Below the pieces are notes generated by a model that was not told the origin of the DNA, ran no database searches, and saw only the letters and a list, made by a program, of their open reading frames with translations. A stretch of DNA of 56,428 nt, taken from positions 1-56,428 of the IMG/VR virus record IMGVR_UViG_3300046051_000019. One strand, written 5' to 3'. This document shows positions 1 to 56,428 of the stretch, piece after piece. Both the position numbers and the translations under genes were made by a program. Position 1 is the stretch's first letter. Every line of letters starts with the position of its first letter. The DNA is from a virus.

Positions 1-55
1 CGTCGCATCTCTATCAGTTACAAACGTATATGTGGGCGATGGATTGCCCGGGTGA
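1..55. repeat. Terminal overlap: bases 1-55 are identical to 56374-56428
   Basis: Direct comparison of both ends (cgtcgcatctctatcagttacaaacgtatatgtgggcgatggattgcccgggtga). The unique unit is 56373 bp. Confidence 0.95.
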
Positions 56-9190: not shown

Positions 9191-9598
9191 ATGCCAGACG
9201 CAGACGAACTAGACGAACAGTACACCGCGGACGAGCTCCGGCGCGGCCCAGCGATCGGCGTCACAGGTCGCTGGGACATGACGAAGCAAGAACTCATCGA
9301 CGCCATCACCGAGGAGACCGGTGTCGAGCGAGTCACCGACGAAGCGTTTCAAGGCGTGCACGATGTCGAGCCTGGCGACACCGTCGAGATGAACCATCTC
9401 CAAGCCGTGCTCACCGTCACCGACGTCGAGCGAAGCGAACACCGCGTCGCGATCGAGATGGAAACGACTCACGGCGGTCGCCACAGACTCGTGTACGACG
9501 AGTTCGAGATCCCGCACCTCGAGCGCTGGCGTGCGAACGACGACAAGTGGATGAAAAACAGTACTGACCCGGAGTACTTCCGAGTCGTTCAGGACTGA
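9191..9598 (+). CDS. Hypothetical protein (possible Rho_N/SAP-like motif MTKQELIDAITEETG)
   Basis: ATG lies 8 nt after the GGAGGTCCC box. Confidence 0.6.
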   Translation: MPDADELDEQYTADELRRGPAIGVTGRWDMTKQELIDAITEETGVERVTDEAFQGVHDVEPGDTVEMNHLQAVLTVTDVERSEHRVAIEMETTHGGRHRLVYDEFEIPHLERWRANDDKWMKNSTDPEYFRVVQD

Positions 9599-10248
9599 AA
9601 CGCAATTTCTTTCGCGTCACCGAGCTGCTCTCGATAAATATGAGCGGACGTCATGACGTGCTCGTGGCGACCGATCTCAGCATCGATCTCCTCTGCGAGC
9701 TCGTGGTGGTAATGACCGAATACCCCGACGTCCATCGGGTACGCGAACATCAAGTCCTGTGACCTGTTATACGTGAAGCAATGTAAGTACGTCCCGTTCC
9801 CGTTCTCGTCCGCGCGGATCATCCACTGCACGCGGCTCGTGCACGGCGAGTCCGGGGCACCGCCGAATTGGCTCGTCGCTTTCCGGGTACCGTGGTCACG
9901 GGTTAAGAGCTCGATCCATTTCTCCCAATCCGCGCTAATTCGTTTCCTGATGACGTCTTCGTAGAACGTCCCGTCGTCGAGATCCAGTCTCGTGTCGAGC
10001 TCACTCGATGCTGTGAACTCGGGTTCCTCGCCGCTCCGCACGGTTTCTATTTCGCTCCATAAGTAGTCGTGTCGTGGGTCGTCTTCGCTCCAGACGACGT
10101 ATTCATCCGGGGTGTGCGCGGTGACGCAGTAGTTCTGTAGTTCGAGCGTCTCGAAGCCCCGGGTCTCGACGCGTTGTCCGTGTTGGATAACTGATCGAAG
10201 CACTGATGGGTAGGAGTCGGCGACGTTCGCGACGTATAGTTCGTGCAC
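9589..10248 (-). CDS. Thymidylate-synthase (ThyA) family pyrimidine C5 transferase, paralogue 1. Asp at the base-specificity position suggests a dCMP substrate.
   Basis: SPCTSRVQWMI carries the catalytic Cys. YNRSQDLMFAYPMDV aligns with YQRSxDxxLGxPFNI, with N replaced by D. The GTG start lies 27 nt after AAACTTAAT. Confidence 0.7.
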   Translation of the reverse strand: MHELYVANVADSYPSVLRSVIQHGQRVETRGFETLELQNYCVTAHTPDEYVVWSEDDPRHDYLWSEIETVRSGEEPEFTASSELDTRLDLDDGTFYEDVIRKRISADWEKWIELLTRDHGTRKATSQFGGAPDSPCTSRVQWMIRADENGNGTYLHCFTYNRSQDLMFAYPMDVGVFGHYHHELAEEIDAEIGRHEHVMTSAHIYREQLGDAKEIAFQS

Positions 10249-10327
10249 GGTTCGTGGTAAGGAACGAGTAACATTAAGTTTTTCTCTTACAGTTACATTT
10301 ATCAATACTCGGTGTTTAACACCGTAC
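10249..10327. promoter_or_regulatory. Divergent promoter region with two outward TATA boxes
   Basis: Minus strand reads TGTAAGAGAAAAACTTAAT and plus strand ACATTTATCAAT. Each lies about 27 nt from its start codon (10248 and 10328). Confidence 0.5.
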
Positions 10328-10945
10328 ATGAGGTCCGTATGGCAGAACTTTCAAGACGGCGTGTCTCACTGCTCGGAGTGCCCCGGGCAAGAAGCACCGT
10401 ACCCACTTGGCGGTATCGGTAACCATGGCGCCGACGTGATGCTCGTCGGGCAAGAACCAGCGTACAACGTCGACGACGACACGGTTACCACGGAGATGAA
10501 CTGGCTCGACGCAGTAGCTACGATGATACAGAACCGTCGTGACTCCATGAACCCGCTCTGGAAACACATGATGAACGTCGCTGTCGCGGCGGAGTGCTCG
10601 CCAACCGATCTCTACTTCACGAATATCAGCAAATGTTCAACAGACAATACATCGTTTAGCGACTGCCTCGAACATTGCAGAGGGTACTTCCCACGCGAAG
10701 TCGCACAGGTCGATCCAGACGTCATGCTACTATACGGTGGGAAAGTCATCAGTACGGTGTTCGACATGTTCGACATCGAGTGGAGCGGGTCAGTTGGTGA
10801 CGTGCACGGCGAGATCCATGAAACGTCGAGCCTGAAACTCGCCGCGTTCTACCACTGGGGCTACATTTATAGACAGGGGGATCTAACGTCTTACCGCGAA
10901 GAGGTGACCAACGTTGTCCAAGACACTGTATCAGCGGAGAACTGA
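10328..10945 (+). CDS. Uracil-DNA glycosylase superfamily protein (family 4/5-like)
   Basis: N-terminal CSEC, motif MLVGQEPAYN in place of GEAPG/GLAPA, then YFTNISKC and HWGY. Confidence 0.6.
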   Translation: MRSVWQNFQDGVSHCSECPGQEAPYPLGGIGNHGADVMLVGQEPAYNVDDDTVTTEMNWLDAVATMIQNRRDSMNPLWKHMMNVAVAAECSPTDLYFTNISKCSTDNTSFSDCLEHCRGYFPREVAQVDPDVMLLYGGKVISTVFDMFDIEWSGSVGDVHGEIHETSSLKLAAFYHWGYIYRQGDLTSYREEVTNVVQDTVSAEN

Positions 10946-10948
10946 TCA

Positions 10949-12193
10949 ATGAGCATCCTCGAAACCGATCTCGCGGACGTTACCCCTGGGGGTCACGCGG
11001 CTCAAGCACTGCTCCACAAGTACGGTCTCGGCGCGCTCTTCGCCGCTAATGTATTAGGTGCCGGGTCAATATACATCTTATCGCAGACCGGCGCCTCAGT
11101 CGGGTTCACGTTGCTCTGGGTGCTACCGCTCGCGTTCGCTGTGGACATGGTGATGCACGACATGTCGTCGCGACTCGCGGTTAGGGATCGACCCCTAATG
11201 GAGTACATCAGTGACGCGCTCCACGAGCTCACTGGGAGTACACGGATCGGCGTCGCGTATGCCATACTGATGGCGCTCGTCATGCAACTCTGGGCCGTGG
11301 CGAACTACGCCGTAGCCGGCGCCGCGTTCTCGTGGTTCACAGGTGTCAACGTGTACGTCGCGATCCTCGCCGCGTCAAGCATCGGTGTCGTGCTCGTGAT
11401 GACGCGCACGTACAACTATATCGAAGCGGTTATCAGTGCGTTGCTCGTAACCGTGTTCGTTTCCTACGCCGCGTTGTCATTCGGGTTAGACGTCAACACG
11501 GCTGATCTCGTCAGTGGGTTCGTGCCCGGCGACGTGTCGAGCGCGACACTCGTCATCGCGATGCTCGGCACCACGATTTACTATCCGAACTTTTTTATCC
11601 AGAGCTCGATGCAACCGACAAAGGAATGGACGTCACTGAGAAAGTATCGTCGCGACAACGCGGTAGGTATCGCGTTCGCGATACTGATCTCAGTCGGGAT
11701 GCTCGTCGTCGCAGCTGTCGCGCTCGAGCCCGGTGAGCTATCCCTCACAGATCCAGCGATACCGCTCGTCGACTCCGTTGGCGCGTGGACGCTTCCCGTG
11801 TTCATGGCAGCTGTGCTCGCCGCGTCGTTCACATCAGCCACTGGGACGCTATTCGGTTCGTCGTTCGCGGTGCCTCAATCGCTCGGGAAGAAAACGATCT
11901 TTGGCGACACTGTGTTCACCGTGGTCACCGTCGTGCTGATCGGTGTCAGCTCGGTGCTATCCATCTTGGCGCTCGAGTTCACGGAGATGACACCGGTCCG
12001 GATGGCTATCACGATGCCAGCGTTGAACGGCGCGATCTTTCTCCCAGTGACGATCTTAGCGATGTACAACGCGACGGCGTACGAGATGGACGCGTGGCAA
12101 AAAACCGTCTCGGCGATCGCTGTCGTCGTCATGTTCGCGGGATCGATCCTCACAGCCGAGTCGCTGTTCGACACAGTGGTGAGCTTCCTATGA
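10949..12193 (+). CDS. NRAMP-family-like integral membrane transporter with non-canonical substrate-site residues
   Basis: About 11 hydrophobic segments. GLGALFAANVLGAGSIYILSQTGASVGFTLLWVL aligns with NRAMP TM1, with GAGS in place of DPGN. TM6 has YYPN in place of MPHN. Confidence 0.65.
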   Translation: MSILETDLADVTPGGHAAQALLHKYGLGALFAANVLGAGSIYILSQTGASVGFTLLWVLPLAFAVDMVMHDMSSRLAVRDRPLMEYISDALHELTGSTRIGVAYAILMALVMQLWAVANYAVAGAAFSWFTGVNVYVAILAASSIGVVLVMTRTYNYIEAVISALLVTVFVSYAALSFGLDVNTADLVSGFVPGDVSSATLVIAMLGTTIYYPNFFIQSSMQPTKEWTSLRKYRRDNAVGIAFAILISVGMLVVAAVALEPGELSLTDPAIPLVDSVGAWTLPVFMAAVLAASFTSATGTLFGSSFAVPQSLGKKTIFGDTVFTVVTVVLIGVSSVLSILALEFTEMTPVRMAITMPALNGAIFLPVTILAMYNATAYEMDAWQKTVSAIAVVVMFAGSILTAESLFDTVVSFL

Positions 12194-13413: not shown

Positions 13414-15218
13414 TGTTCGAATACGATATCGTCGAGAACGAGTACGGGCCACAACTCGCCGTGTCGTTCCAATACGACGAACGAACAATCGAACAGATCA
13501 AGTCACTGAGCTGGGAGACGACGCATCGAGCATGGTCAGAGGACCACGACGCGTGGCTCATCGATTACACCGAGCAGTCGCTCGAAGAATTCCAAGACCA
13601 AATGAACGTCGTTATCCCGCCGCGATACACGCCCAGCGAGGACCACAGCGGCGTGGTTCATGCAGTGGTTCCAGACGAATACGCGTGGTTCTTCCTTCAA
13701 GACCCGTCGAGCGAGATCGATGATTTACTCTGGCAAGAGCTCGCGTACTGGAACGACGCGTACAAGGAACACCAACAACAATGGATTCGACTCTACGATA
13801 CAGATACCCATGGCGCACCGATCGGTCTCCTCGACAAGACACGGAAGCTCGTCGAGGCGAGTGGCTACGAGTTCACAGTTACGTGGAACGGTGACCGAAA
13901 GGGCGGCGCGGTCCAGCTCGACTGGGAGTTCCCCTCGGAGCTCCGCGGATACCAACGAGACGCGATCAACGCCGTGAAAGCGAATGACGGAGGTATCATC
14001 GCGTTACCAACCGGGACCGGGAAAACCGTCACGGCGATGAAACTCCTCGAGGAAGTGTCGCTCGAGATGGGGCGAGGTATCGTTCTCGTGCACACACAAG
14101 AACTGCTTTATCAATGGGAGAGTGAGATCCGCGATGCGCTACGCGTGGAGCCCGGCGTGATTGGCGATGGGAACTGGAGCGAGGGCCCAGTTACGATCGC
14201 GGTGATGCAGACGTTGATGAGCCGTGGCGTGGACGAGCTCGACGAGTCGTATGGCGTCGCGGTGTTTGACGAGTGTCACAGGACATCAGCGGCGGACACG
14301 ATGCACGACATCGGGATGGATTTAAACGTCGCGATGCGTGTCGGGCTCAGCGCGACGCCGTGGCGTCGGATCGAGGGCGAGGAACTCATGATCGAGGGCG
14401 CGGTTGGCGGCGAGGCGCACACCGTTACCGCCGAGGAAATGATCGACGCCGGGTATCTCTCAGAACCGCGATTCGACGTCATCGACCCTCGAGACTACGG
14501 GCGTGTCGACACCGCTAATACCGGTGAAGCGTATCACGACGCGTACCGTCGCTGTATCAGTCTCACCGCGACGAGGAACCGCGCGATCGCGGCGAAAACC
14601 GCGGAGCTCGCCAACCTAGGGTACCAAGTGTTGGTTAACGTGGATCGTATCAAGCACGGGCGTCTCCTCGAGTACGCATTGAACCGAGACGTCGATCACG
14701 ACGACGTCATTGACGCCGTTGACTTCGACGACGCGCAATCGAGGCGCGAGTTCATCAGCGCGTTGCAAGCGACGAGTCGAGTCGCTGATACGAACGCCGA
14801 GTTCATGCACGGCGCTGATACCACTAAGATCCGTCAGGATACACTCGACGAGTTCCAAAACGGTGACCTCGATATCCTCGTCTCGACGCTATTGAGGGAG
14901 GGCGTCGATATCCCGAACATTAGCGCTATCGTTCTCGCGCAAGCAGGGAAAAGCGACGTCAAGCAAATCCAGGTCATCGGGCGAGCGCTACGACCGAAGA
15001 ACGGCGACCACGCTCGCATCGTGGACGTGAACGATACTGGTCGATACTTTCGCAGTCAATTCGAGAAGCGCATAACCGCGATGCGGGAATACTATGGAGA
15101 GTATGGACCGTCTTTGAGTGACTTCGATGTCGAGCCGACATCGGATGATGGACCACCCGAGTCGCGGAGCTTAACTGACGAGCCACCGGAGTCGTTCGAG
15201 GACCTCTATGATAACTGA
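13413..15218 (+). CDS. Superfamily 2 DNA helicase (Rad25/XPB- or type III res-like)
   Basis: ALPTGTGKT, VFDECHR, GLSATPWR and QVIGRALR motifs. TGATG coupling. Confidence 0.85.
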   Translation: MFEYDIVENEYGPQLAVSFQYDERTIEQIKSLSWETTHRAWSEDHDAWLIDYTEQSLEEFQDQMNVVIPPRYTPSEDHSGVVHAVVPDEYAWFFLQDPSSEIDDLLWQELAYWNDAYKEHQQQWIRLYDTDTHGAPIGLLDKTRKLVEASGYEFTVTWNGDRKGGAVQLDWEFPSELRGYQRDAINAVKANDGGIIALPTGTGKTVTAMKLLEEVSLEMGRGIVLVHTQELLYQWESEIRDALRVEPGVIGDGNWSEGPVTIAVMQTLMSRGVDELDESYGVAVFDECHRTSAADTMHDIGMDLNVAMRVGLSATPWRRIEGEELMIEGAVGGEAHTVTAEEMIDAGYLSEPRFDVIDPRDYGRVDTANTGEAYHDAYRRCISLTATRNRAIAAKTAELANLGYQVLVNVDRIKHGRLLEYALNRDVDHDDVIDAVDFDDAQSRREFISALQATSRVADTNAEFMHGADTTKIRQDTLDEFQNGDLDILVSTLLREGVDIPNISAIVLAQAGKSDVKQIQVIGRALRPKNGDHARIVDVNDTGRYFRSQFEKRITAMREYYGEYGPSLSDFDVEPTSDDGPPESRSLTDEPPESFEDLYDN

Positions 15219-15236
15219 CAGAGAAAGACTTATACC
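15217..15236 (+). promoter_or_regulatory. GACAGAGAAAGACTTATACC promoter driving the tRNA and the structured RNA
   Basis: TATA centre lies about 27-30 nt upstream of the tRNA 5' end at 15261. Confidence 0.55.
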
Positions 15237-15260
15237 GTTACGTGTTTAACTTACACTCGA

Positions 15261-15334
15261 TGCGAGGTAGGACAGCTAGGCTACTCCGCACGGCTCATGC
15301 CCGTGAAACCGATGGTTCGAGTCCATCCCTCGCA
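15261..15334 (+). tRNA. tRNA with CAT anticodon (Met, or Ile if C34 is modified)
   Basis: Hand-folded cloverleaf. Acceptor stem TGCGAGG/CCTCGCA. U8 is present and the D loop has GG. Anticodon stem CACGG/CCGTG with loop CTCATGC. T arm GATGG-TTCGAGT-CCATC. Confidence 0.85.
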
Positions 15335-15339
15335 ACTGC

Positions 15340-15447
15340 CCGGCAACCGTGTCAGTTACTTCGAAAGCTCCCGAACACCCTGACACGGATTCACCCGGGC
15401 TTATGGGAACGACGAAGGGTTCGAGTCCCTCCGTTCTCACTTGCCGG
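15340..15447 (+). ncRNA. Structured tRNA-like RNA module A (three-way junction)
   Basis: Closing stem CCGGCAA/TTGCCGG. A 9-bp hairpin pairs 15347-55 with 15380-88. The minihelix is GGGAACG-acg-AAGGG-TTCGAGT-CCCTC-CGTTCTC at 15405-38. No credible ORF. Confidence 0.55.
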
Positions 15448-15548
15448 AGCGAAAACAGCTCGCCGTCTCGGAAGGGACACATCCAGTGACCGCGTACCGT
15501 CGTGCGGACCTGGAGGACTCGCGGGCACACGACGGGCTCCGGCGCACT

Positions 15549-15613
15549 CGGCAAGGGAACCGGTTACTTCGCATCTAGCGCGAGTGACTCGCGTTCGAAT
15601 CGCGACTTGTCGT
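15549..15613 (+). ncRNA. D-arm-less tRNA-like module B with a 7-nt loop AUCUAGC
   Basis: Acceptor stem CGGCAAG/CTTGTCG. Long stem pairs 15563-72 with 15580-88. T arm TCGCG-TTCGAAT-CGCGA. Confidence 0.4.
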
Positions 15614-15688
15614 GCACAGCACGGCAACGTGGTCTAACACGGCATAAGACACTAACACCCGGTTCCCACTCATCCGAGGTACATACCA

Positions 15689-15940
15689 ATGAACGATTTC
15701 AACGTCGAGGTTAAGAAAGACGACGAGCCACGATTACACGTCCCGAGTGACGCGAGATCCGAGCTCAGCGAGGACGAGATAGCGTCCATCACGCGCCAAG
15801 CGATGGATCGATTCGGCGTCGAGACCATCCCGGAGCTCATCGTCACGACGGAGAAAACCATCGAGGAAGAATACGTTCTCGGGACAGTCGAAATCGTCGA
15901 GGACGGCGTCGTGTTCACCGCGAAGGACGAGAGGTTCTAA
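15689..15940 (+). CDS. Hypothetical acidic protein
   Basis: 83-aa ORF immediately upstream of the TROVE gene. Confidence 0.6.
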   Translation: MNDFNVEVKKDDEPRLHVPSDARSELSEDEIASITRQAMDRFGVETIPELIVTTEKTIEEEYVLGTVEIVEDGVVFTAKDERF

Positions 15941-15942
15941 CC

Positions 15943-17478
15943 ATGGACTTGAACTCGTCTAAAACAGAAGCGCGGAACCTCGCTGGTGGCCATCGCCACG
16001 AGATCAATGACCCACTGGAAGCGCTTCGAATGGTCATGATTACCAACTTACTCGAGGACACGTACTACGAGGACGACTCCGAGTCGCTCGAGAAACTCGT
16101 CGAGCGCTTTCAAGCAGCTGCGAACGTGGATCCCGAGTTCCCGTTGCGACTCGCCGCGTGGGCGCGACGAGACGCATACGTTCGAGACGTCCCGCAAGTA
16201 TTACTCGTGCTCAGCGCGCGCCACGACGACGCGAAGCACTACGTTCGACGATACGCGAGCCACGTGATCGATCGAGCCGACGAGCTCTGCACGACGCTCG
16301 CGTTTAACAACACAGTGGCTGGTGACGGCCCGGGTGACTTCTCCGCGACGATTCCATGGGTCTTGAAACGAGCCATTGCTGATGTGATCGAGGACGCGTC
16401 GTTCGACGCGTACCAGTACGCGAAGTACCGACAAGGGCACCGAGCGGTCTCGATGCACGACGTGTTCAACCAAGTGCACCCATATGGGTACGAGGACAGT
16501 CCAGAACCCGTCGAGGGACAATCCGAGATCGCGAATAGGATAACCAAGGGAGGGAAGGACGCGTATCCAGACGTACAGTCTCTCAGCCAGAGACGTACGT
16601 GGGAAGACACCATCAGTGAAGCGGGGCAAGACGGCGACGTCACGGCTGATGACTGGCGCCGCGTGCTCGACGACATGGGGTTATTCGCCCGAGTCCGGAA
16701 CTTACGGAACATGCTCGAAGCTGGGCTGACTGGTGAAGAAATCCTCGAGGACGCGAGCGACGAGTGGATCCGGAACAGTCAACTATACCCGTTCAGGTTT
16801 TACCAAGCACGGAAAGCACTCAAGGGCGCTAGTGAGATGGATCGCTACGTGCACGAGTGGCTTGAGAACGCGGTGAACGTCGCGTGTGAAACCGTGCCAG
16901 ACGAGCTCGTACACACAGCGACGCTCGTGGACCTGTCGGGCTCGATGCAACAACGGGTGTCGAACCGGAGCGACCTTAGTCGCGTCGAGATCGCGGCGTT
17001 GTTCGGCGCGATGCTCGGTCAGAGACGCTCGGATGTCATCGGGTTCGCCGATACAGCGACTCGTGTCCCCGTTGACCCGCTCGAGAACAGTGTGCTCTCG
17101 TTGCAAGAAGCGATCGTGTCCACGGATGTCGGGAGTAGCACGTTCGCTCACAAGGCGCTCGAGTTCATCGCGGACGAGTCTACTGATGGAGAAGTCGTTC
17201 CTGATAGAGTCGTGGTGTTCACTGATTTCCAGATCTGGGAGAGACAGCGGTACGGTAACGACCCGAACGCGTTCCGTGGTGCGTGGGAGATGCTTCGCGA
17301 GATGCACTCCGAGGAACCGTATTTGTACATCGTGGACTTGGCGAGTTACGGCGAGATCAAGCTCCCAGAGAACTACCCGGGCGTCACGAGACTGCAGGGA
17401 TGGAACGACGGCGTGTTGGATTACATCTGGCACGCCGAGAACAGTTTACTAGACGACATTCAAGCGTATGACCCATGA
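15943..17478 (+). CDS. Ro60/Rsr-like TROVE-domain protein with C-terminal vWA domain
   Basis: N-terminus has NLAGGHRHEINDPLEALRMV..TYYED..DPEFPLRLAAWARRDAYVRD, which is TROVE-like. The vWA MIDAS is DLSGSM. Confidence 0.7.
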   Translation: MDLNSSKTEARNLAGGHRHEINDPLEALRMVMITNLLEDTYYEDDSESLEKLVERFQAAANVDPEFPLRLAAWARRDAYVRDVPQVLLVLSARHDDAKHYVRRYASHVIDRADELCTTLAFNNTVAGDGPGDFSATIPWVLKRAIADVIEDASFDAYQYAKYRQGHRAVSMHDVFNQVHPYGYEDSPEPVEGQSEIANRITKGGKDAYPDVQSLSQRRTWEDTISEAGQDGDVTADDWRRVLDDMGLFARVRNLRNMLEAGLTGEEILEDASDEWIRNSQLYPFRFYQARKALKGASEMDRYVHEWLENAVNVACETVPDELVHTATLVDLSGSMQQRVSNRSDLSRVEIAALFGAMLGQRRSDVIGFADTATRVPVDPLENSVLSLQEAIVSTDVGSSTFAHKALEFIADESTDGEVVPDRVVVFTDFQIWERQRYGNDPNAFRGAWEMLREMHSEEPYLYIVDLASYGEIKLPENYPGVTRLQGWNDGVLDYIWHAENSLLDDIQAYDP

Positions 17479-22940: not shown

Positions 22941-22962
22941 TGTGTAAGAGTAAGACTTATGG
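22941..22962 (+). promoter_or_regulatory. TGTGTAAGAGTAAGACTTATGG promoter box
   Basis: Same core as the cassette family but with no downstream ORF. The predicted TSS is near 22984. Confidence 0.5.
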
Positions 22963-22983
22963 CGTTACTGGTCTTACGTGTAC

Positions 22984-23100
22984 ATGGAAGGCAGCTGGTT
23001 CGATCCCAGCCGCTCACCTGGCTGAAGCGCGAAGGACAGGTGACGTGCCCGAACAGGGGCGCCGTGGCGATTAACTGTCACGCACCACACCCTTCCTCAC
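22984..23100 (+). ncRNA. Promoter-driven structured small RNA with a T-arm-like hairpin
   Basis: Ends pair as GGAAGG (22986-91) with CCTTCC (23091-96). The T arm GCTGG-TTCGATC-CCAGC lies at 22994-23010. A 7-bp hairpin pairs 23014-20 with 23037-43. Confidence 0.5.
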
Positions 23101-23113
23101 ACGCTCCCTTTCA

Positions 23114-23177
23114 GTGAAAAAGAGAAAGACTTATTGTGATACCGGCTATTAGTCTAAATGGAAAAGAGGTCCCACAG
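23114..23177 (+). promoter_or_regulatory. Conserved promoter+leader cassette, copy 5
   Basis: GTGAAAAAGAGAAAGACTTATTGTGATACCGGCTATTAGTCTAAATGGAAAAGAGGTCCCACAG then ATG at 23178. Confidence 0.75.
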
Positions 23178-49713: not shown

Positions 49714-50095
49714 CTTAGTAACAGCACTCTTAACGCTCATCTCGGTGGGCGTCATGGTCGTCGGAGCGGCACTCGGGTATGTCATCGGGCAACTCGACCA
49801 GTTAAAGAAAGATGACATTGAACCGATGAAGAGTAAGATCGACACGGTGTGGAACACAGTGTTCGGCGTGGAGAGCCAAGAAGGTTTTTTGAACGAAGCG
49901 GAGGACAGTCACGAGAAGATCCGGGAGACGATCGAGGAGACTCGGAGGGAACAGAACGAGGCTCACGATGAACTCGTCGATGGGTTCATCGAGGTCGAGC
50001 GATATCTACGCGAGTTGAATCGAGCGCTGCGTCGTCAAGACATCGAGGTCCCTGACGAGGAAATCGATAACGACGAGTTGCTCAAAGACGATTAG
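49706..50095 (+). CDS. Membrane-anchored coiled-coil protein
   Basis: N-terminal TM segment LVTALLTLISVGVMVVGAALGYVIG followed by an acidic helical region. Confidence 0.5.
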   Translation: MASLVTALLTLISVGVMVVGAALGYVIGQLDQLKKDDIEPMKSKIDTVWNTVFGVESQEGFLNEAEDSHEKIRETIEETRREQNEAHDELVDGFIEVERYLRELNRALRRQDIEVPDEEIDNDELLKDD

Positions 50096-51018
50096 ACCTG
50101 GTCTTTGAACGCGGTGAACGCGATGTCGTTCGCTATATCTATAGCTGTTTCTTCGTTGTCGTGGAATCGGCGTTGTTCGTACGCGGTCATGTAGCGAAGC
50201 CAATCCGCGTAGAACGCTTCGTACGCGTGGAGCGCGTCGATCTCGCTCCACGGGACGAGCCCGTCGCGAGCCCGTGCTAACCCGTGTGTGAGGTAGAACA
50301 TCACGGCGTCGAGCTCGTCGCGTGGGAGCCTGATATCTGGGAGCGAAACCGGGTCCATGTCCCTCGCGGCGTCGAGCACCATTGGTTCTCGCTCGACGTA
50401 GTAGTGACAATTATTCATGTAGTGCGTGTACGAACCGAGCTCGACGCCGAGGATCCCGGCGAGTACTTCTTGGAGCCACTGGAAGTTATGCACGTCGTAC
50501 GGGTATCCCCAGTACATGTCTTGTGACCGCATCGACGTGAACGCGTGGAGGGAGTCGTCTCGGATCACGAGTTGCATTGTGAGCGTGCACGCGACGTCTG
50601 GTCCGTCGTAGTTCTCGACGTGAGGTTGGTGGAACGCGATAACGGCTCGACGAGTCGTCTGGTTGTCGACGAGTTGTTGGACGACGCGATCGATTTGGTC
50701 GTGCGGGACGCGCCTGAGGTAGCGGCCGTACGCTGAGCCCTTGAGTTCCCCGTCTGTCATGAATTGGGTCATCGTGGAGTTGTATCGCTCGACGTGCCCA
50801 GGGTTTTGCCCCGCCCAGTACGCGATTGCTTCTTGGAGTTGGAACGCGAGGTTGTAGTTCTCCCTGAAGAATAATCGTTCACGCGGGTCTTGTGATTGTA
50901 TCGCGACGCCGAGGCGTTCACGCGTGTCACCGTTCCGCGAGTGCTGAGCGTCTTTTTCGCTCAGCGTCTTGACGATCACTGGGAACGCGTTGGACGTGGT
51001 GCACTCGAACACGTGCAT
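50092..51018 (-). CDS. Thymidylate-synthase (ThyA) family pyrimidine C5 transferase, paralogue 2. Asp at the base-specificity position.
   Basis: RRAVIAFHQP, DVACTLTMQLVI (catalytic Cys), MRSQDMYWGYPYDV (N replaced by D) and NNCHYY. The ATG is leaderless, 27 nt after CGTTTTTAAC. Confidence 0.75.
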   Translation of the reverse strand: MHVFECTTSNAFPVIVKTLSEKDAQHSRNGDTRERLGVAIQSQDPRERLFFRENYNLAFQLQEAIAYWAGQNPGHVERYNSTMTQFMTDGELKGSAYGRYLRRVPHDQIDRVVQQLVDNQTTRRAVIAFHQPHVENYDGPDVACTLTMQLVIRDDSLHAFTSMRSQDMYWGYPYDVHNFQWLQEVLAGILGVELGSYTHYMNNCHYYVEREPMVLDAARDMDPVSLPDIRLPRDELDAVMFYLTHGLARARDGLVPWSEIDALHAYEAFYADWLRYMTAYEQRRFHDNEETAIDIANDIAFTAFKDQV

Positions 51019-55671: not shown

Positions 55672-55839
55672 TACCTCTTCGCTGAGTAATCCATGTATAG
55701 GTCATGGCACCTGACCTCGCGCGGCGACACCGTCGTGCTAAACCCGGTGCAATGCACGCGTGGTTTGGTCAACCGTTGGAACCGGGAAGGCTGGGACCTC
55801 GCCCGGAACCGGAACTCGACAAGTCCACCGCTTCGACCC

Positions 55840-55883
55840 GGCCGTGATTAGGTTTTCGATGGTTCGACTCCGTCCACGGCTCC
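55840..55883 (+). ncRNA. tRNA-like minihelix (acceptor stem + T arm) ending 4 nt before the Cas4-like ATG
   Basis: GGCCGTG-attaggttttc-GATGG-TTCGACT-CCGTC-CACGGCT-cc. Lies in a 215-nt ORF-free spacer at 55672-55886. Confidence 0.5.
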
Positions 55884-55886
55884 TAG

Positions 55887-56428
55887 ATGAGCGACTTGAT
55901 CGACAGGTGGTTGGAATCGAAATATACTGGCGGTGAACCCGACGGCGCTCGATTCCGCGACGAGCGCGGGGAGTATCACGCGAGCAATATCAGTAACTGT
56001 CCACGCCGGTGGTACTGGGATTTCGAACGCGAATCAGAGGACTCGTGGAGCCCGTACTTCGAGCTCGGTCGCGTCTTTGAGGACGTGTACGGGCGAGCGC
56101 TGCGCTGGGAGCACGGCGACGACAGAGTGAAGCAAGACGTGAACATCGAGATACGCATCGACGACGATACTCGTATCGTTGGCGAGTCGGATTGGACGGT
56201 GTTCAAGGACGGTGCTCGATACGAGATAGACAAAGTCACGTTGCGTCGAGACGGTACGCGAGACGCAGTTACCCGAGCGGGTGACGTCGTGGAGTACGGG
56301 TGCGACGTTTTGAAAGTCGTGGAGACGAAGACCACGAAAGACATCGATTGGCGGCGCCGGTATGGGCATAAACCGTCGCATCTCTATCAGTTACAAACGT
56401 ATATGTGGGCGATGGATTGCCCGGGTGA
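55887..56428 (+). CDS. Cas4/RecB-like PD-(D/E)XK nuclease, N-terminal part (continues at 3..272)
   Basis: N-terminal Cys (ISNCPRRWYW), GESDW, VVETKT and HLYQLQTYM motifs. The frame is open to the window end and identical to bases 1-55. Confidence 0.75.
   Translation, partial: MSDLIDRWLESKYTGGEPDGARFRDERGEYHASNISNCPRRWYWDFERESEDSWSPYFELGRVFEDVYGRALRWEHGDDRVKQDVNIEIRIDDDTRIVGESDWTVFKDGARYEIDKVTLRRDGTRDAVTRAGDVVEYGCDVLKVVETKTTKDIDWRRRYGHKPSHLYQLQTYMWAMDCPG

What the first reader, a model, noticed from the sequence alone, without database searches (positions are those of the whole stretch)
15405..15438. Recurrent tRNA minihelices (acceptor stem + T arm, no D or anticodon arms) at three separate loci
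Four hairpins besides the bona fide tRNA carry the T-loop consensus GTTCGANYC on a 4-5 bp stem.
- 15415-31: AAGGG-TTCGAGT-CCCTC.
- 15589-605: TCGCG-TTCGAAT-CGCGA.
- 22994-23010: GCTGG-TTCGATC-CCAGC.
- 55858-74: GATGG-TTCGACT-CCGTC.

Two of them, at 15405..15438 and 55840..55881, are directly enclosed by a 7-bp acceptor-like stem. None can be extended to a canonical cloverleaf. All lie in ORF-free spacers on the coding strand of the downstream genes.

Established knowledge: in Haloferax a tRNA-like minihelix upstream of 5S rRNA is used as a tRNase Z processing signal. Minihelices are also substrates of RNase P and the CCA-adding enzyme.

Inference: these could be processing punctuation. The 55840..55883 element ends 4 nt before the Cas4-like ATG, so cleavage there would create a nearly leaderless mRNA. 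Alternatively they could be Ro partners or decoys for tRNA-directed nucleases.
Basis: partly seen in the sequence, partly recalled or inferred. Interest (0 to 1): 0.7.

Follow-up and report, generated by a model that had tools for sequence, protein, structure and literature searches.

The report
Shrunken tRNAs and viral Y RNAs
In this salt-loving archaeal virus, two of the reported hairpins are tRNA genes shrunk to the part that RNA-cutting enzymes recognise, one is part of a tRNA-mimicking Y RNA next to a viral Ro60 gene, and one may be chance.

Summary
The sequences are as described, but the four hairpins are three different things.

- **15589-15605** is the T arm of a YrlA-type Y RNA (15547-15678). 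It lies upstream of a virus-encoded Ro60 (TROVE+vWA, 15943-17478). Eighteen such modules in five related loci share GCAA / 9-bp stem / NUACUUCG / ACUCAU, with strong covariation. Rfam YrlA hits three relatives below threshold.
- **55840-55881** is a tRNA reduced to its acceptor stem and T arm.
  - A 60%-identity relative has a true tRNA-Thr 3 nt before the same Cas4-like ATG.
  - Three closer relatives have non-cloverleaf intermediates.
  - Both stems covary (98% paired; 9 of 12 pairs changed on both sides).
  - The element always ends 2-5 nt before the start codon.
- **15405-15438** starts 5 nt after a short Y RNA. It occupies the slot of tRNA-Trp in two relatives and shares their 3' flank A-CUUG.
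- **22994-23010** has no acceptor stem, is absent from relatives and sits in a lineage-specific insert. It is not distinguishable from chance.

Best reading: the minihelices are virus-kept "t-elements". RNase P and tRNase Z would cut there, trimming the Y RNAs and releasing a nearly leaderless Cas4/PolB mRNA. Cleavage is inferred, not shown.

The parts
15225..15233 (+). Viral promoter-like motif AAGACTTAT (BRE/TATA-like), 28 nt before tRNA-Met. It is the likely start of the ncRNA transcript.
   Evidence: The motif occurs 15 times against 5.4 expected. It is conserved upstream of Y arrays and of leaderless ORFs in relatives. Promoter function is inferred.
15261..15335 (+). Bona fide tRNA-Met(CAU). 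It ends 3 nt before the Y1 module.
   Evidence: Rfam tRNA 52.7 bits; ARAGORN.
15339..15399 (+). Y1, a short Y-RNA module. Layout: outer stem CCCGG/CCGGG, 5' loop CAA, 9-bp stem, apical loop UUACUUCGAAAGCUCCCGAACACC, 3' loop AUUCAC.
   Evidence: Module search; covariation over 18 modules; MFE fold.
15405..15438 (+). Minihelix: acceptor GGGAACG/CGUUCUC (7 bp), linker ACG, T arm AAGGG-UUCGAGU-CCCUC; discriminator A15439. Probably a reduced tRNA-Trp kept as a processing signal.
   Evidence: (mascRNA model 18.1 bits with the middle deleted). It shares the 3' flank A-CUUG and the synteny of tRNA-Trp in L002 and L004.
15440..15546 (+). Structured spacer between the minihelix and Y2 (closing stem GCCGGAGC/GCUCCGGC). 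Function unknown.
   Evidence: MFE fold. It holds the only two substitutions against the 97% relative in this region. No similar sequence elsewhere.
15547..15678 (+). Y2, a YrlA-like Y RNA. Basal stem CUCGG-CAA-GGGAACCGG / CCGGUUCCC-ACUCAU-CCGAG. V hairpin 15569-15583. T arm 15589-15605 (the finding's second hairpin). Closed 7-bp acceptor-like stem 15609-15625. D-like arm 15628-15641.
   Evidence: (z = -5.3). Orthologues in L002 and L004 carry compensatory changes. Rfam YrlA hits paralogous modules in L003, L004 and L005.
15943..17478 (+). Ro60/Rsr orthologue (TROVE + vWA domains), the presumed protein partner of Y1 and Y2.
   Evidence: Pfam TROVE 2e-21 and VWA_2; 251 homologues, many annotated as Ro60 or TROVE.
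22994..23010 (+). Orphan T-arm-like hairpin GCUGG-UUCGAUC-CCAGC with no acceptor stem. It lies about 10 nt after a predicted transcription start, inside a lineage-specific insert flanked by duplicated promoter motifs (22952 and 23126).
   Evidence: Absent from L193-L195. Not separable from chance.
55700..55835 (+). Conserved structured intergenic RNA block upstream of the minihelix (invariant UGGGACCUC...CGGAACC).
   Evidence: Alignment. RNAalifold finds 12 of 40 pairs with compensatory changes.
55840..55881 (+). Minihelix: acceptor GGCCGUG/CACGGCU (7 bp), 11-nt linker, T arm GAUGG-UUCGACU-CCGUC; discriminator C55882. A reduced tRNA ending 5 nt before the Cas4-like ATG.
   Evidence: It is positionally homologous to tRNA-Thr(UGU) of L201. 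Covariation: 98.3% paired, 9 of 12 pairs changed on both sides.
55887..56428 (+). Cas4-like (PD-(D/E)XK) nuclease gene, 252 aa. It runs over the end of the window and continues at 56-272 of the circular genome. It is the first gene of the PolB replication block.
   Evidence: Synteny with PolB in L183, L184 and L186.

Best explanation
**Setting.** The window is a complete 56.4-kb circular genome of a haloarchaeal tailed virus. It encodes Ro60.

**The ncRNA transcript upstream of Ro60.** One promoter drives, in order: tRNA-Met, a short Y RNA (Y1), a minihelix, a structured spacer, and a YrlA-like Y RNA (Y2).
- The hairpin at 15589-15605 is simply the T arm of Y2's tRNA-like domain.
- The true minihelix at 15405-15438 is a tRNA gene (probably tRNA-Trp) that lost its D and anticodon arms. 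It kept the coaxial acceptor-stem/T-arm half, which is the part RNase P, tRNase Z and the CCA-adding enzyme recognise.
- Host RNase P would cut at its 5' side and tRNase Z after its discriminator base. Like the full tRNAs at this position in relatives, it would thereby define the 3' end of Y1.

**The element upstream of the Cas4-like gene.** The minihelix at 55840-55881 descends from a tRNA at the tRNA-Thr position.
- Cleavage there would separate a conserved structured intergenic RNA from the Cas4-like/PolB mRNA.
- The mRNA would be left with a 4-nt leader, which is effectively leaderless, the preferred form for haloarchaeal translation.

**The fourth hairpin.** 22994-23010 is probably unrelated: either chance or a lineage-specific remnant.

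**Shown versus inferred.**
- Shown: the anatomy, the homology to tRNAs, the covariation and the spacing.
- Inferred: cleavage, Ro60 binding and the leaderless outcome.
For: Ro60 and the Y RNAs:
- Ro60 is identified by Pfam TROVE + VWA.
- The Y-module family has 18 modules in the window and L002-L005, all on the Ro60 strand. The 9-bp stem is always 9/9 paired with different sequences. GCAA, UAC.UCG and A.UCAU are invariant. The covariation score is 0.82 against 0.24 for shuffles.
- Rfam YrlA hits L005 2725-2833 (41.9 bits, E = 4e-6), L004 and L003 modules, and a cellular haloarchaeal locus.
- Y modules abut tRNAs within 0-5 nt in every locus. This matches the bacterial tRNA/Y RNA polycistrons described in PMC4201824.

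The 15405 minihelix:
- It starts 5 nt after Y1.
- Its T arm, its 3' acceptor strand and the flank A-CUUG align with tRNA-Trp of L002 and L004, in the same slot: Y module, tRNA, roughly 110-nt spacer, proximal YrlA.

The Cas4 element:
- L201 has a true tRNA-Thr (65 bits) ending 3 nt before the ATG.
- L183, L184 and L185 have elements with a 36-45-nt middle that neither ARAGORN nor Rfam calls tRNA.
- Acceptor strands are GGCCGUG, AACUGUG, GACUAGG and UUCUGGA, each perfectly paired. T stems covary. Pairing falls to 33-55% when the partner is slid.
- The distance to the start codon is 5, 5, 5, 2 and 3 nt.

General:
- No viral promoter motif lies in 55672-55886, so co-transcription with upstream genes is plausible.
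- Minihelices are substrates of RNase P, tRNase Z and the CCA-adding enzyme (PMC3714273).
- Haloferax t-elements are processed in vivo by both enzymes (PMC4326828).
- Very short 5' UTRs are typical in haloarchaea (PMC4574771 abstract).
Against: - No RNA-end, cleavage or Ro60-binding data exist.
- From memory, not checked here: Schierling et al. 2002 reported that removing the D arm strongly reduces cleavage by H. volcanii RNase Z. Hölzle et al. 2012 reported that 47 predicted tRNA-like elements of H. volcanii were not cleaved in vitro. A D-arm-less minihelix may therefore be a poor tRNase Z substrate.
- The 15405 minihelix is seen in only one lineage (the window and a 97% twin), so selection on it is unproven.
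- The 5' acceptor strands in L183-L185 were located by searching for complements. I estimate the chance of a 7/7 match within 60 nt at about 0.06 per sequence.
- Only five lineages were available.
- L186 (54% Cas4 identity) has no element and only a 32-nt gap, so the element is dispensable in some relatives.
- Window Y2 itself gets no Rfam YrlA hit at E <= 10.
Confidence: 0.6

Rival explanations
1. The minihelices are neutral relics: tRNA pseudogenes left by internal deletions, with no present function.
For: - Relatives carry real tRNAs at both positions.
- The tRNA content of these arrays turns over quickly between relatives.
- The 15405 element is known from one lineage only.
- L186 lacks the Cas4 element altogether.
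Against: - For the Cas4 element, four lineages have lost the cloverleaf. Yet both stems stay fully paired through compensatory changes, the T loop stays at consensus, and the distance to the ATG stays at 2-5 nt.
- Neutral decay would not spare exactly the 12 stacked pairs.
- The 15405 element also keeps 7/7 and 4/5 pairs and a consensus T loop.
Confidence: 0.2
2. The excised minihelices are themselves the functional product. They would be small, stable, possibly CCA-tailed RNAs acting as decoys or competitors for host tRNA-binding enzymes or defence nucleases, or as extra Ro60 ligands.
For: - Minihelices are substrates of the CCA-adding enzyme (PMC3714273).
- Plant t-elements accumulate with non-encoded C/A tails (PMC1920247).
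- M. smegmatis YrlA is cleaved by RNase P and CCA-tailed (PMC4201824).
- The virus invests heavily in tRNA-like RNAs next to Ro60.
Against: - They lack anticodon loops, so they cannot decoy anticodon nucleases.
- Acceptor sequences are not conserved between lineages, which argues against a sequence-specific partner.
- The fixed spacing to a start codon points to a cis role.
Confidence: 0.1
3. The Cas4-proximal element acts uncleaved, or cut only by RNase P. It would be a structured 5' cap or regulatory leader that protects or tunes the Cas4/PolB mRNA, together with the conserved upstream block. It could also be part of a DNA-level element such as a replication origin between the primase and polymerase genes.
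For: - The 135-nt block upstream is conserved and shows compensatory pairs.
- The locus sits between PrimPol and Cas4/PolB.
- H. volcanii tRNase Z is reportedly sensitive to loss of the D arm (from memory).
Against: - An orthologous position is filled by an ordinary tRNA-Thr in L201. That tRNA must be excised to function, so cleavage next to the ATG is the ancestral state.
- Covariation indicates RNA-level rather than DNA-level selection.
Confidence: 0.08
4. The elements are attP-type tRNA fragments, or scars of integration into host tRNA genes.
For: Temperate haloviruses often carry tRNA-like attP sequences (PMC7911831).
Against: - No integrase was found among the ORFs tested.
- The elements include a matching 5' acceptor strand, which an att core does not need.
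- They evolve by compensatory change rather than tracking a host tRNA.
- Relatives have complete viral tRNA genes at the same sites.
Confidence: 0.02

Closest known systems
t-elements: tRNA-like processing signals of plant mitochondria (Hanic-Joyce and Gray 1990; Forner et al. 2007, PMC1920247) and the t-element upstream of Haloferax volcanii 5S rRNA (Hölzle et al. 2008, as described in PMC4326828)
   Same: - A non-cloverleaf element with an acceptor-like stem and a T arm carrying GGTTCRANYCC.
- It sits inside longer transcripts, and its ends would define neighbouring RNA 5' and 3' ends through RNase P and tRNase Z.
- One plant case places the mRNA 5' end at +2 of rps4, that is, leaderless.
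- The host group (haloarchaea) is known to process such elements in vivo.
   Different: - These are encoded by a virus.
- They are reduced further (3- and 11-nt linkers) than the described t-elements.
- A graded series is visible across relatives: full tRNA, then degenerate element, then minihelix.
- One flanks a Y RNA rather than an mRNA or rRNA.
- Cleavage has not been shown here.
YrlA / bacterial and phage Y RNAs bound by Ro60 (Rsr) (Chen et al. 2014, PMC4201824; Wang et al. 2018, bioRxiv 10.1101/312249; Rfam RF02553)
   Same: - Encoded on the same strand just upstream of a Ro60 orthologue.
- The 5' and 3' ends pair into a stem with an internal loop.
- The interior is a tRNA-like domain in the order V, T arm, closed acceptor-like stem, D arm.
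- Several Y RNAs per locus, co-transcribed with tRNAs.
- A 7-bp acceptor-like stem, as in M. smegmatis YrlA.
   Different: - The host is an archaeal virus.
- The basal motif is GCAA...NUACUUCG...ACUCAU rather than GNCGAAN0-1G.
- The window copy has a degenerate D arm and does not reach any Rfam YrlA score; relatives reach 33-42 bits against a gathering score of 69.
- Arrays hold up to six modules interleaved with tRNAs.
mascRNA / MEN-beta tRNA-like 3'-end elements and the MHV68 tRNA-like-miRNA units
   Same: A tRNA-like element inside a longer transcript recruits RNase P and/or tRNase Z to mature the neighbouring RNA. The Rfam mascRNA model aligns to 15405-15438 with its middle deleted.
   Different: - Those are eukaryotic nuclear or herpesviral systems.
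- The score here is far below threshold (18.1 against 42.5 bits).
- There is no triple-helix or miRNA context.
- The MHV68 comparison rests on my own knowledge.
Mitochondrial tRNA punctuation model (Ojala et al. 1981; my own knowledge)
   Same: tRNAs or tRNA remnants placed directly against start codons, so that tRNA excision yields leaderless mRNAs.
   Different: Only two sites in this genome are involved, not genome-wide punctuation. The elements are top-half tRNAs rather than functional tRNAs.

Membership tests
canonical tRNA | Cloverleaf with D arm, anticodon arm and 7-nt anticodon loop, scoring above the Rfam RF00005 threshold | tested here: not met
   - Only 15261-15335 passes (52.7 bits).
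- There is no tRNA hit at E <= 10 in 15200-15700 for the other elements.
- ARAGORN's tRNA-Pyl call at 15540-15613 coincides with a YrlA-like module. It recurs on the orthologue in L002, and the putative CUA anticodon is not conserved.
YrlA-type Y RNA | Encoded within about 4 kb of, and on the same strand as, a Ro60 (TROVE) gene | tested here: met
   Y1 and Y2 lie 265-604 nt upstream of the TROVE+vWA gene on the + strand. The same holds for 16 further modules in L002-L005.
YrlA-type Y RNA | tRNA-like domain in the order V, T arm, closed acceptor-like stem, D arm, enclosed by a stem formed from the 5' and 3' ends | tested here: met
   - Y2 has a V hairpin at 15569-83, a T arm at 15589-605, a 7-bp closed stem at 15609-25 and a D-like arm at 15628-41, all inside the 9-bp and 5-bp basal stems.
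- The D arm is canonical in paralogues L003_c, L004_e and L005_c but degenerate in the window.
- Y1 lacks the tRNA-like domain; it resembles the plain hairpin type (YrlB/Yrn2).
YrlA-type Y RNA | Conserved GNCGAAN0-1G motif near the 5' end (the proposed Ro60 contact) | tested here: inconclusive
   The invariant 5' motif here is GCAA followed by the stem, and then NUACUUCG. It is similar in place and flavour but does not match GNCGAAN0-1G.
YrlA-type Y RNA | Scores at or above the Rfam RF02553 gathering threshold (69 bits) | tested here: not met
   - The window gets no hit at E <= 10.
- Relatives score 41.9, 35.4 and 33.6 bits with E from 4e-6 to 1e-3.
- A cellular haloarchaeal locus scores 32.4 bits.
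YrlA-type Y RNA | Bound by Ro60 in vivo | not testable with these tools
   Needs Ro60 immunoprecipitation or in vitro binding.
t-element (tRNA-like processing signal) | Non-canonical tRNA-like fold retaining an acceptor-like stem stacked on a T arm with the GGTTCRANYCC motif | tested here: met
   15405-15438 and 55840-55881 each have a 7/7 acceptor stem, 4-5 bp T stems and GGUUCGAGUCC or GGUUCGACUCC. The 22994 hairpin lacks the acceptor stem, so it does not meet this.
t-element (tRNA-like processing signal) | Structure maintained by selection (compensatory changes across relatives) | tested here: met
   - Met for 55840-55881: 98.3% of cells paired and 9 of 12 pairs changed on both sides, against 33-55% paired when slid.
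- For 15405-15438 this could not be tested, because only a 97% twin is available.
t-element (tRNA-like processing signal) | Element borders coincide with mapped RNA ends, and the element is cleaved by RNase P and tRNase Z | not testable with these tools
   No transcriptome or enzymology is available. The indirect support is the constant 2-5 nt distance to the start codon and a real tRNA at the same site in L201.
mascRNA/menRNA | Scores above the Rfam RF01684 threshold (42.5 bits) | tested here: not met
   18.1 bits, E = 0.52 for 15405-15438.
attP tRNA fragment | An integrase gene in the genome, and identity of the fragment to the 3' part of a host tRNA gene | tested here: inconclusive
   No integrase domain was found in the 29 ORFs scanned, but not every ORF was scanned.

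The most novel reading that the evidence does not exclude
Haloarchaeal viruses, and the Ro60 cassettes of their hosts, run a Ro60-Y RNA system. This would be the first in the archaeal domain. Its RNAs, and at least one replication-gene mRNA, would be matured by a mitochondria-like 'tRNA punctuation'. Former tRNA genes would have been whittled down, step by step across lineages, to the bare acceptor/T-arm top half, because that half alone is what RNase P and tRNase Z need. The excised minihelices may also persist as CCA-tailed small RNAs.
Probability: 0.4. Interest if true: 0.8.

Novelty: new variant of a known kind. Interest (0 to 1): 0.64.

Why it matters
- It would give a natural evolutionary series: full tRNA-Thr, then a cloverleaf-less intermediate, then a 42-nt minihelix. 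The series shows that selection can act on the tRNA top half alone as an RNA-processing signal. That has mostly been shown with synthetic substrates.
- It suggests how a haloarchaeal virus turns an internal cistron that follows a long structured spacer into a leaderless mRNA, the form its host translates best.
- It extends Ro60/Y RNA biology to archaeal viruses, and apparently to haloarchaea. I found no report of this in the searched literature.
- The loci hold unusually rich arrays of Y modules interleaved with tRNAs. That makes the link between Ro60, tRNA mimicry and tRNA processing directly testable in a tractable host group.

Tried and rejected
- DNA similarity to GenBank phages for all three loci gave nothing, or only generic T-arm matches.
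- IMG/VR holds only one relative, a 97-98% twin of the window. It is uninformative for covariation.
- The pattern scan GGCAA-N9-GTTACTTCG of viral contigs was too unspecific, and its 120 loci are chance hits.
- The metagenome scan with Cas4-like proteins gave only four distant (36-38%) loci. One (L198) has a tRNA-like sequence about 20 nt upstream that ARAGORN and Rfam do not call. I did not rely on it.
- A 20-nt match of the 22994 insert to L042 is not a tRNA.
- I considered the ARAGORN tRNA-Pyl(CUA) call as a possible suppressor tRNA. I rejected it: there is no Rfam support, it lies inside a YrlA-like module, and CUA is not conserved.
- Folding energies of the isolated minihelices are not exceptional (z = -0.4 and -1.5), so thermodynamics alone proves nothing.
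- The attP reading was rejected; see the rival explanations.

Full report
**What the window is.**
- The first 55 nt repeat the last 55 nt, so this is a circular assembly of 56,373 bp.
- Its large terminase is 45% identical to Halorubrum virus CGphi46 and 40% to Halobacterium phage ChaoS9.
- It encodes PolB, PrimPol, a helicase, two thymidylate-synthase-like proteins, dCTP deaminase, UDG, an Nramp transporter and a Cas4-like nuclease.
- No integrase was found among the ORFs scanned.
- Almost all genes are on the + strand.

**Checking the observation.**
- The four hairpins and the two 7-bp enclosures are exactly as described.
- The bare 9-mer GTTCGANYC is not enriched (10 against 12 expected).
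- GGTTCGANYCC occurs 4 times against 0.44 expected, all on the + strand, one being the true tRNA-Met.
- T arms with a stem occur 6 times against 2.6 (p about 0.04).
- Perfect acceptor-enclosed minihelices occur twice against 0.17.
- Isolated folding energies are unremarkable.
- The case therefore rests on comparison with relatives, not on statistics within the window.

**Locus 1, the Y RNAs: identification.**
- The ORF 15943-17478 has TROVE and vWA domains, so it is a Ro60/Rsr orthologue. It has hundreds of haloarchaeal homologues.
- Bacterial and phage Ro60 genes are accompanied by Y RNAs. The YrlA type carries a tRNA-like domain in the order V, T arm, closed acceptor-like stem, D arm, inside a stem formed by the RNA ends. 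These RNAs are often co-transcribed with tRNAs (PMC4201824; bioRxiv 10.1101/312249).
- I fetched four relatives whose Ro60 is 55-71% identical (L002-L005).
- In the window and these loci I found 18 modules, all on the Ro60 strand. Each has an outer stem, an invariant GCAA, a 9-bp stem, NUACUUCG, a variable interior, the 3' half of the 9-bp stem, A(C/A/U)UCAU, and the outer stem again.

**Locus 1, the Y RNAs: covariation and the window's two modules.**
- The 9-bp helix is paired in every module with different sequences. All nine pairs change on both sides.
- The outer helix was not used for selection. It is 64% paired in register against 30-47% when slid.
- The covariation score is 0.82 against 0.24 for shuffles.
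- The window holds two modules. Y1 (15339-15399) has a 24-nt apical loop. Y2 (15547-15678) contains a V hairpin, the T arm at 15589-15605, a closed 7-bp stem and a D-like arm.
- Rfam's YrlA model hits three paralogous modules in relatives at 33-42 bits (E from 4e-6 to 1e-3). That is below its threshold of 69. It does not hit the window copy.
- The finding's second hairpin is therefore the T arm of a YrlA-like Y RNA. ARAGORN's tRNA-Pyl(CUA) call is an artefact of that mimicry.

**Locus 1, the minihelix 15405-15438.**
- A promoter-like motif, AAGACTTAT, occurs 15 times against 5.4 expected. One copy lies 28 nt before tRNA-Met.
- The predicted transcript reads tRNA-Met, 3 nt, Y1, 5 nt, minihelix, a 107-nt structured spacer, Y2.
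- In relatives the Y modules abut genuine tRNAs within 0-5 nt on either side. L005 has a non-cloverleaf tRNA-like element directly after a YrlA module (2838-2906).
- The minihelix shares its T arm, its 3' acceptor strand, its discriminator A and the flank CUUG with tRNA-Trp(CCA) of L002 and L004. Those tRNAs occupy the same slot.
- It is most simply a tRNA-Trp gene that lost 38 internal nucleotides. Because only a 97% twin is available, selection on it cannot be shown.

**Locus 3 (55840-55881).**
- Relatives with Cas4-like proteins 68-76% identical (L183-L185) keep the same gene order and a conserved intergenic region.
- Each has, just before the start codon, an element with a perfect 7-bp acceptor stem of a different sequence, a covarying T arm, a conserved UUC before the T arm, AG after the acceptor strand, and a 36-45-nt non-conserved middle. 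Neither ARAGORN nor Rfam accepts these as tRNA.
- The window has only 11 nt in the middle.
- A relative at 60% identity (L201) has a true tRNA-Thr(UGU) there (65 bits), ending 3 nt before the ATG.
- Over the five lineages 98.3% of cells are paired and 9 of 12 pairs change on both sides. Pairing collapses when the partner is slid.
- The gap to the start codon is 5, 5, 5, 2 and 3 nt.
- A relative at 54% (L186) lacks the element.
- Upstream, about 135 nt are conserved and show compensatory pairs.
- No viral promoter motif lies in this spacer.

**Locus 2 (22994-23010).**
- Relatives (L193-L195) have one promoter motif followed by a leaderless small ORF, and no T arm.
- The window and its twin have a duplicated promoter motif (22952 and 23126) around a roughly 165-nt insert. 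The insert begins with a 13-codon remnant and contains the hairpin.
- There is no acceptor stem. The fold is not exceptional (z = -1.5). Nothing similar exists elsewhere.
- One leftover match to an 11-mer expected 0.44 times is not evidence. I leave it as chance or a lineage-specific remnant.

**Mechanism.**
- RNase P, tRNase Z and the CCA-adding enzyme accept acceptor/T-arm minihelices (PMC3714273).
- Haloferax processes t-elements on both sides in vivo (PMC4326828).
- Plant mitochondrial t-elements were found with the same GGTTCRANYCC motif and define mRNA ends, one at +2 of a start codon (PMC1920247).
- Haloarchaeal mRNAs are mostly leaderless or carry leaders of a few nucleotides (abstracts listed).
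- The tRNA-Thr of L201 must be excised to function, so cutting next to the Cas4 start codon is the likely ancestral state. The minihelix is what remains when only that cut is still needed.
- Caveats from memory: H. volcanii RNase Z was reported to be sensitive to D-arm removal, and predicted tRNA-like elements in H. volcanii were not cleaved in vitro.
- Cleavage, Ro60 binding and the leaderless outcome are inferences.

**Comparison and novelty.**
- The elements work like t-elements and YrlA RNAs.
- Membership in YrlA is supported by context and architecture but not by the Rfam threshold or the published 5' motif.
- Membership in t-elements is met structurally and untested functionally.
- Phage Ro60 with Y RNAs is known (PMC4201824; PMC12135203).
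- I found nothing on archaeal or archaeal-virus Y RNAs, or on virus-encoded minihelix punctuation, in the held literature. That is an absence in one library only.

Noticed in passing
L127-L176 (cellular haloarchaeal Ro60 loci), for example L155 15-894, L146 42-977, L128 1261-1445: Chromosomal and plasmid Ro60 genes of many haloarchaea are preceded on the same strand by dense arrays of up to about ten tRNA genes within 1.5 kb. They also carry Y-like modules; Rfam YrlA scores 32.4 bits at L128 1261-1357, with a V hairpin like the viral one. The tRNA-array/Y RNA/Ro60 cassette looks widespread and possibly mobile.
   Followed up: partly
window 55700-55835: A conserved intergenic block upstream of the Cas4-proximal minihelix, with invariant UGGGACCUC...CGGAACC and several helices supported by compensatory changes (12 of 40 pairs). 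It could be an unknown structured RNA. Because it lies between the primase and polymerase genes, it could instead be replication-related.
   Followed up: partly
window 15225, 22952, 23126, 9138, 13159, 21709, 23972, 25948 (+) and 3988, 18855 (-): The recurrent motif AAGACTTAT(A) occurs 15 times against 5.4 expected. It sits about 25-30 nt before gene or tRNA starts and is also conserved in relatives. It is probably the viral BRE/TATA promoter driving leaderless transcripts.
   Followed up: partly
window 22952-23134: The promoter motif is duplicated around a roughly 165-nt insert that starts with a 13-codon remnant of the downstream small ORF's start (ATGGAAGG...). Relatives have a single promoter and no insert.
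   Followed up: partly
window 15440-15546: A 107-nt spacer between the minihelix and Y2 folds into a closed domain (GCCGGAGC/GCUCCGGC). It has no Y-module motifs and no detectable relatives. Both substitutions against the 97% twin in the ncRNA region fall here.
   Followed up: partly
L005 1082-1122 and L005 2838-2906: Two further non-cloverleaf tRNA-like elements in a relative. The first is a minihelix with a 10-nt linker in an intergenic spacer, 32 nt before a small ORF. The second is a 69-nt element with a perfect 7-bp acceptor stem directly after a YrlA module and before tRNA-Lys.
   Followed up: partly
window 1-55 and 56374-56428: An exact 55-nt terminal overlap, so the window is a complete circular assembly of 56,373 bp. 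The Cas4-like gene runs across the junction.
   Followed up: yes
window 10949-12193: An Nramp-family metal transporter gene (Pfam 1.7e-30) in a viral genome, which is an unusual auxiliary gene. There are also two thymidylate-synthase-like genes on the minus strand (9589-10329 and 50092-51018).
   Followed up: no
L004 3875-4004 and L005 3624-3778 (Ro60-proximal YrlA-like modules); window 15609-15625: The closed acceptor-like stems of two relatives have loops beginning AACCA. The window's 7-bp stem is closed by ACA. This recalls M. smegmatis YrlA, which RNase P opens in this loop and which then carries a CCA end.
   Followed up: no
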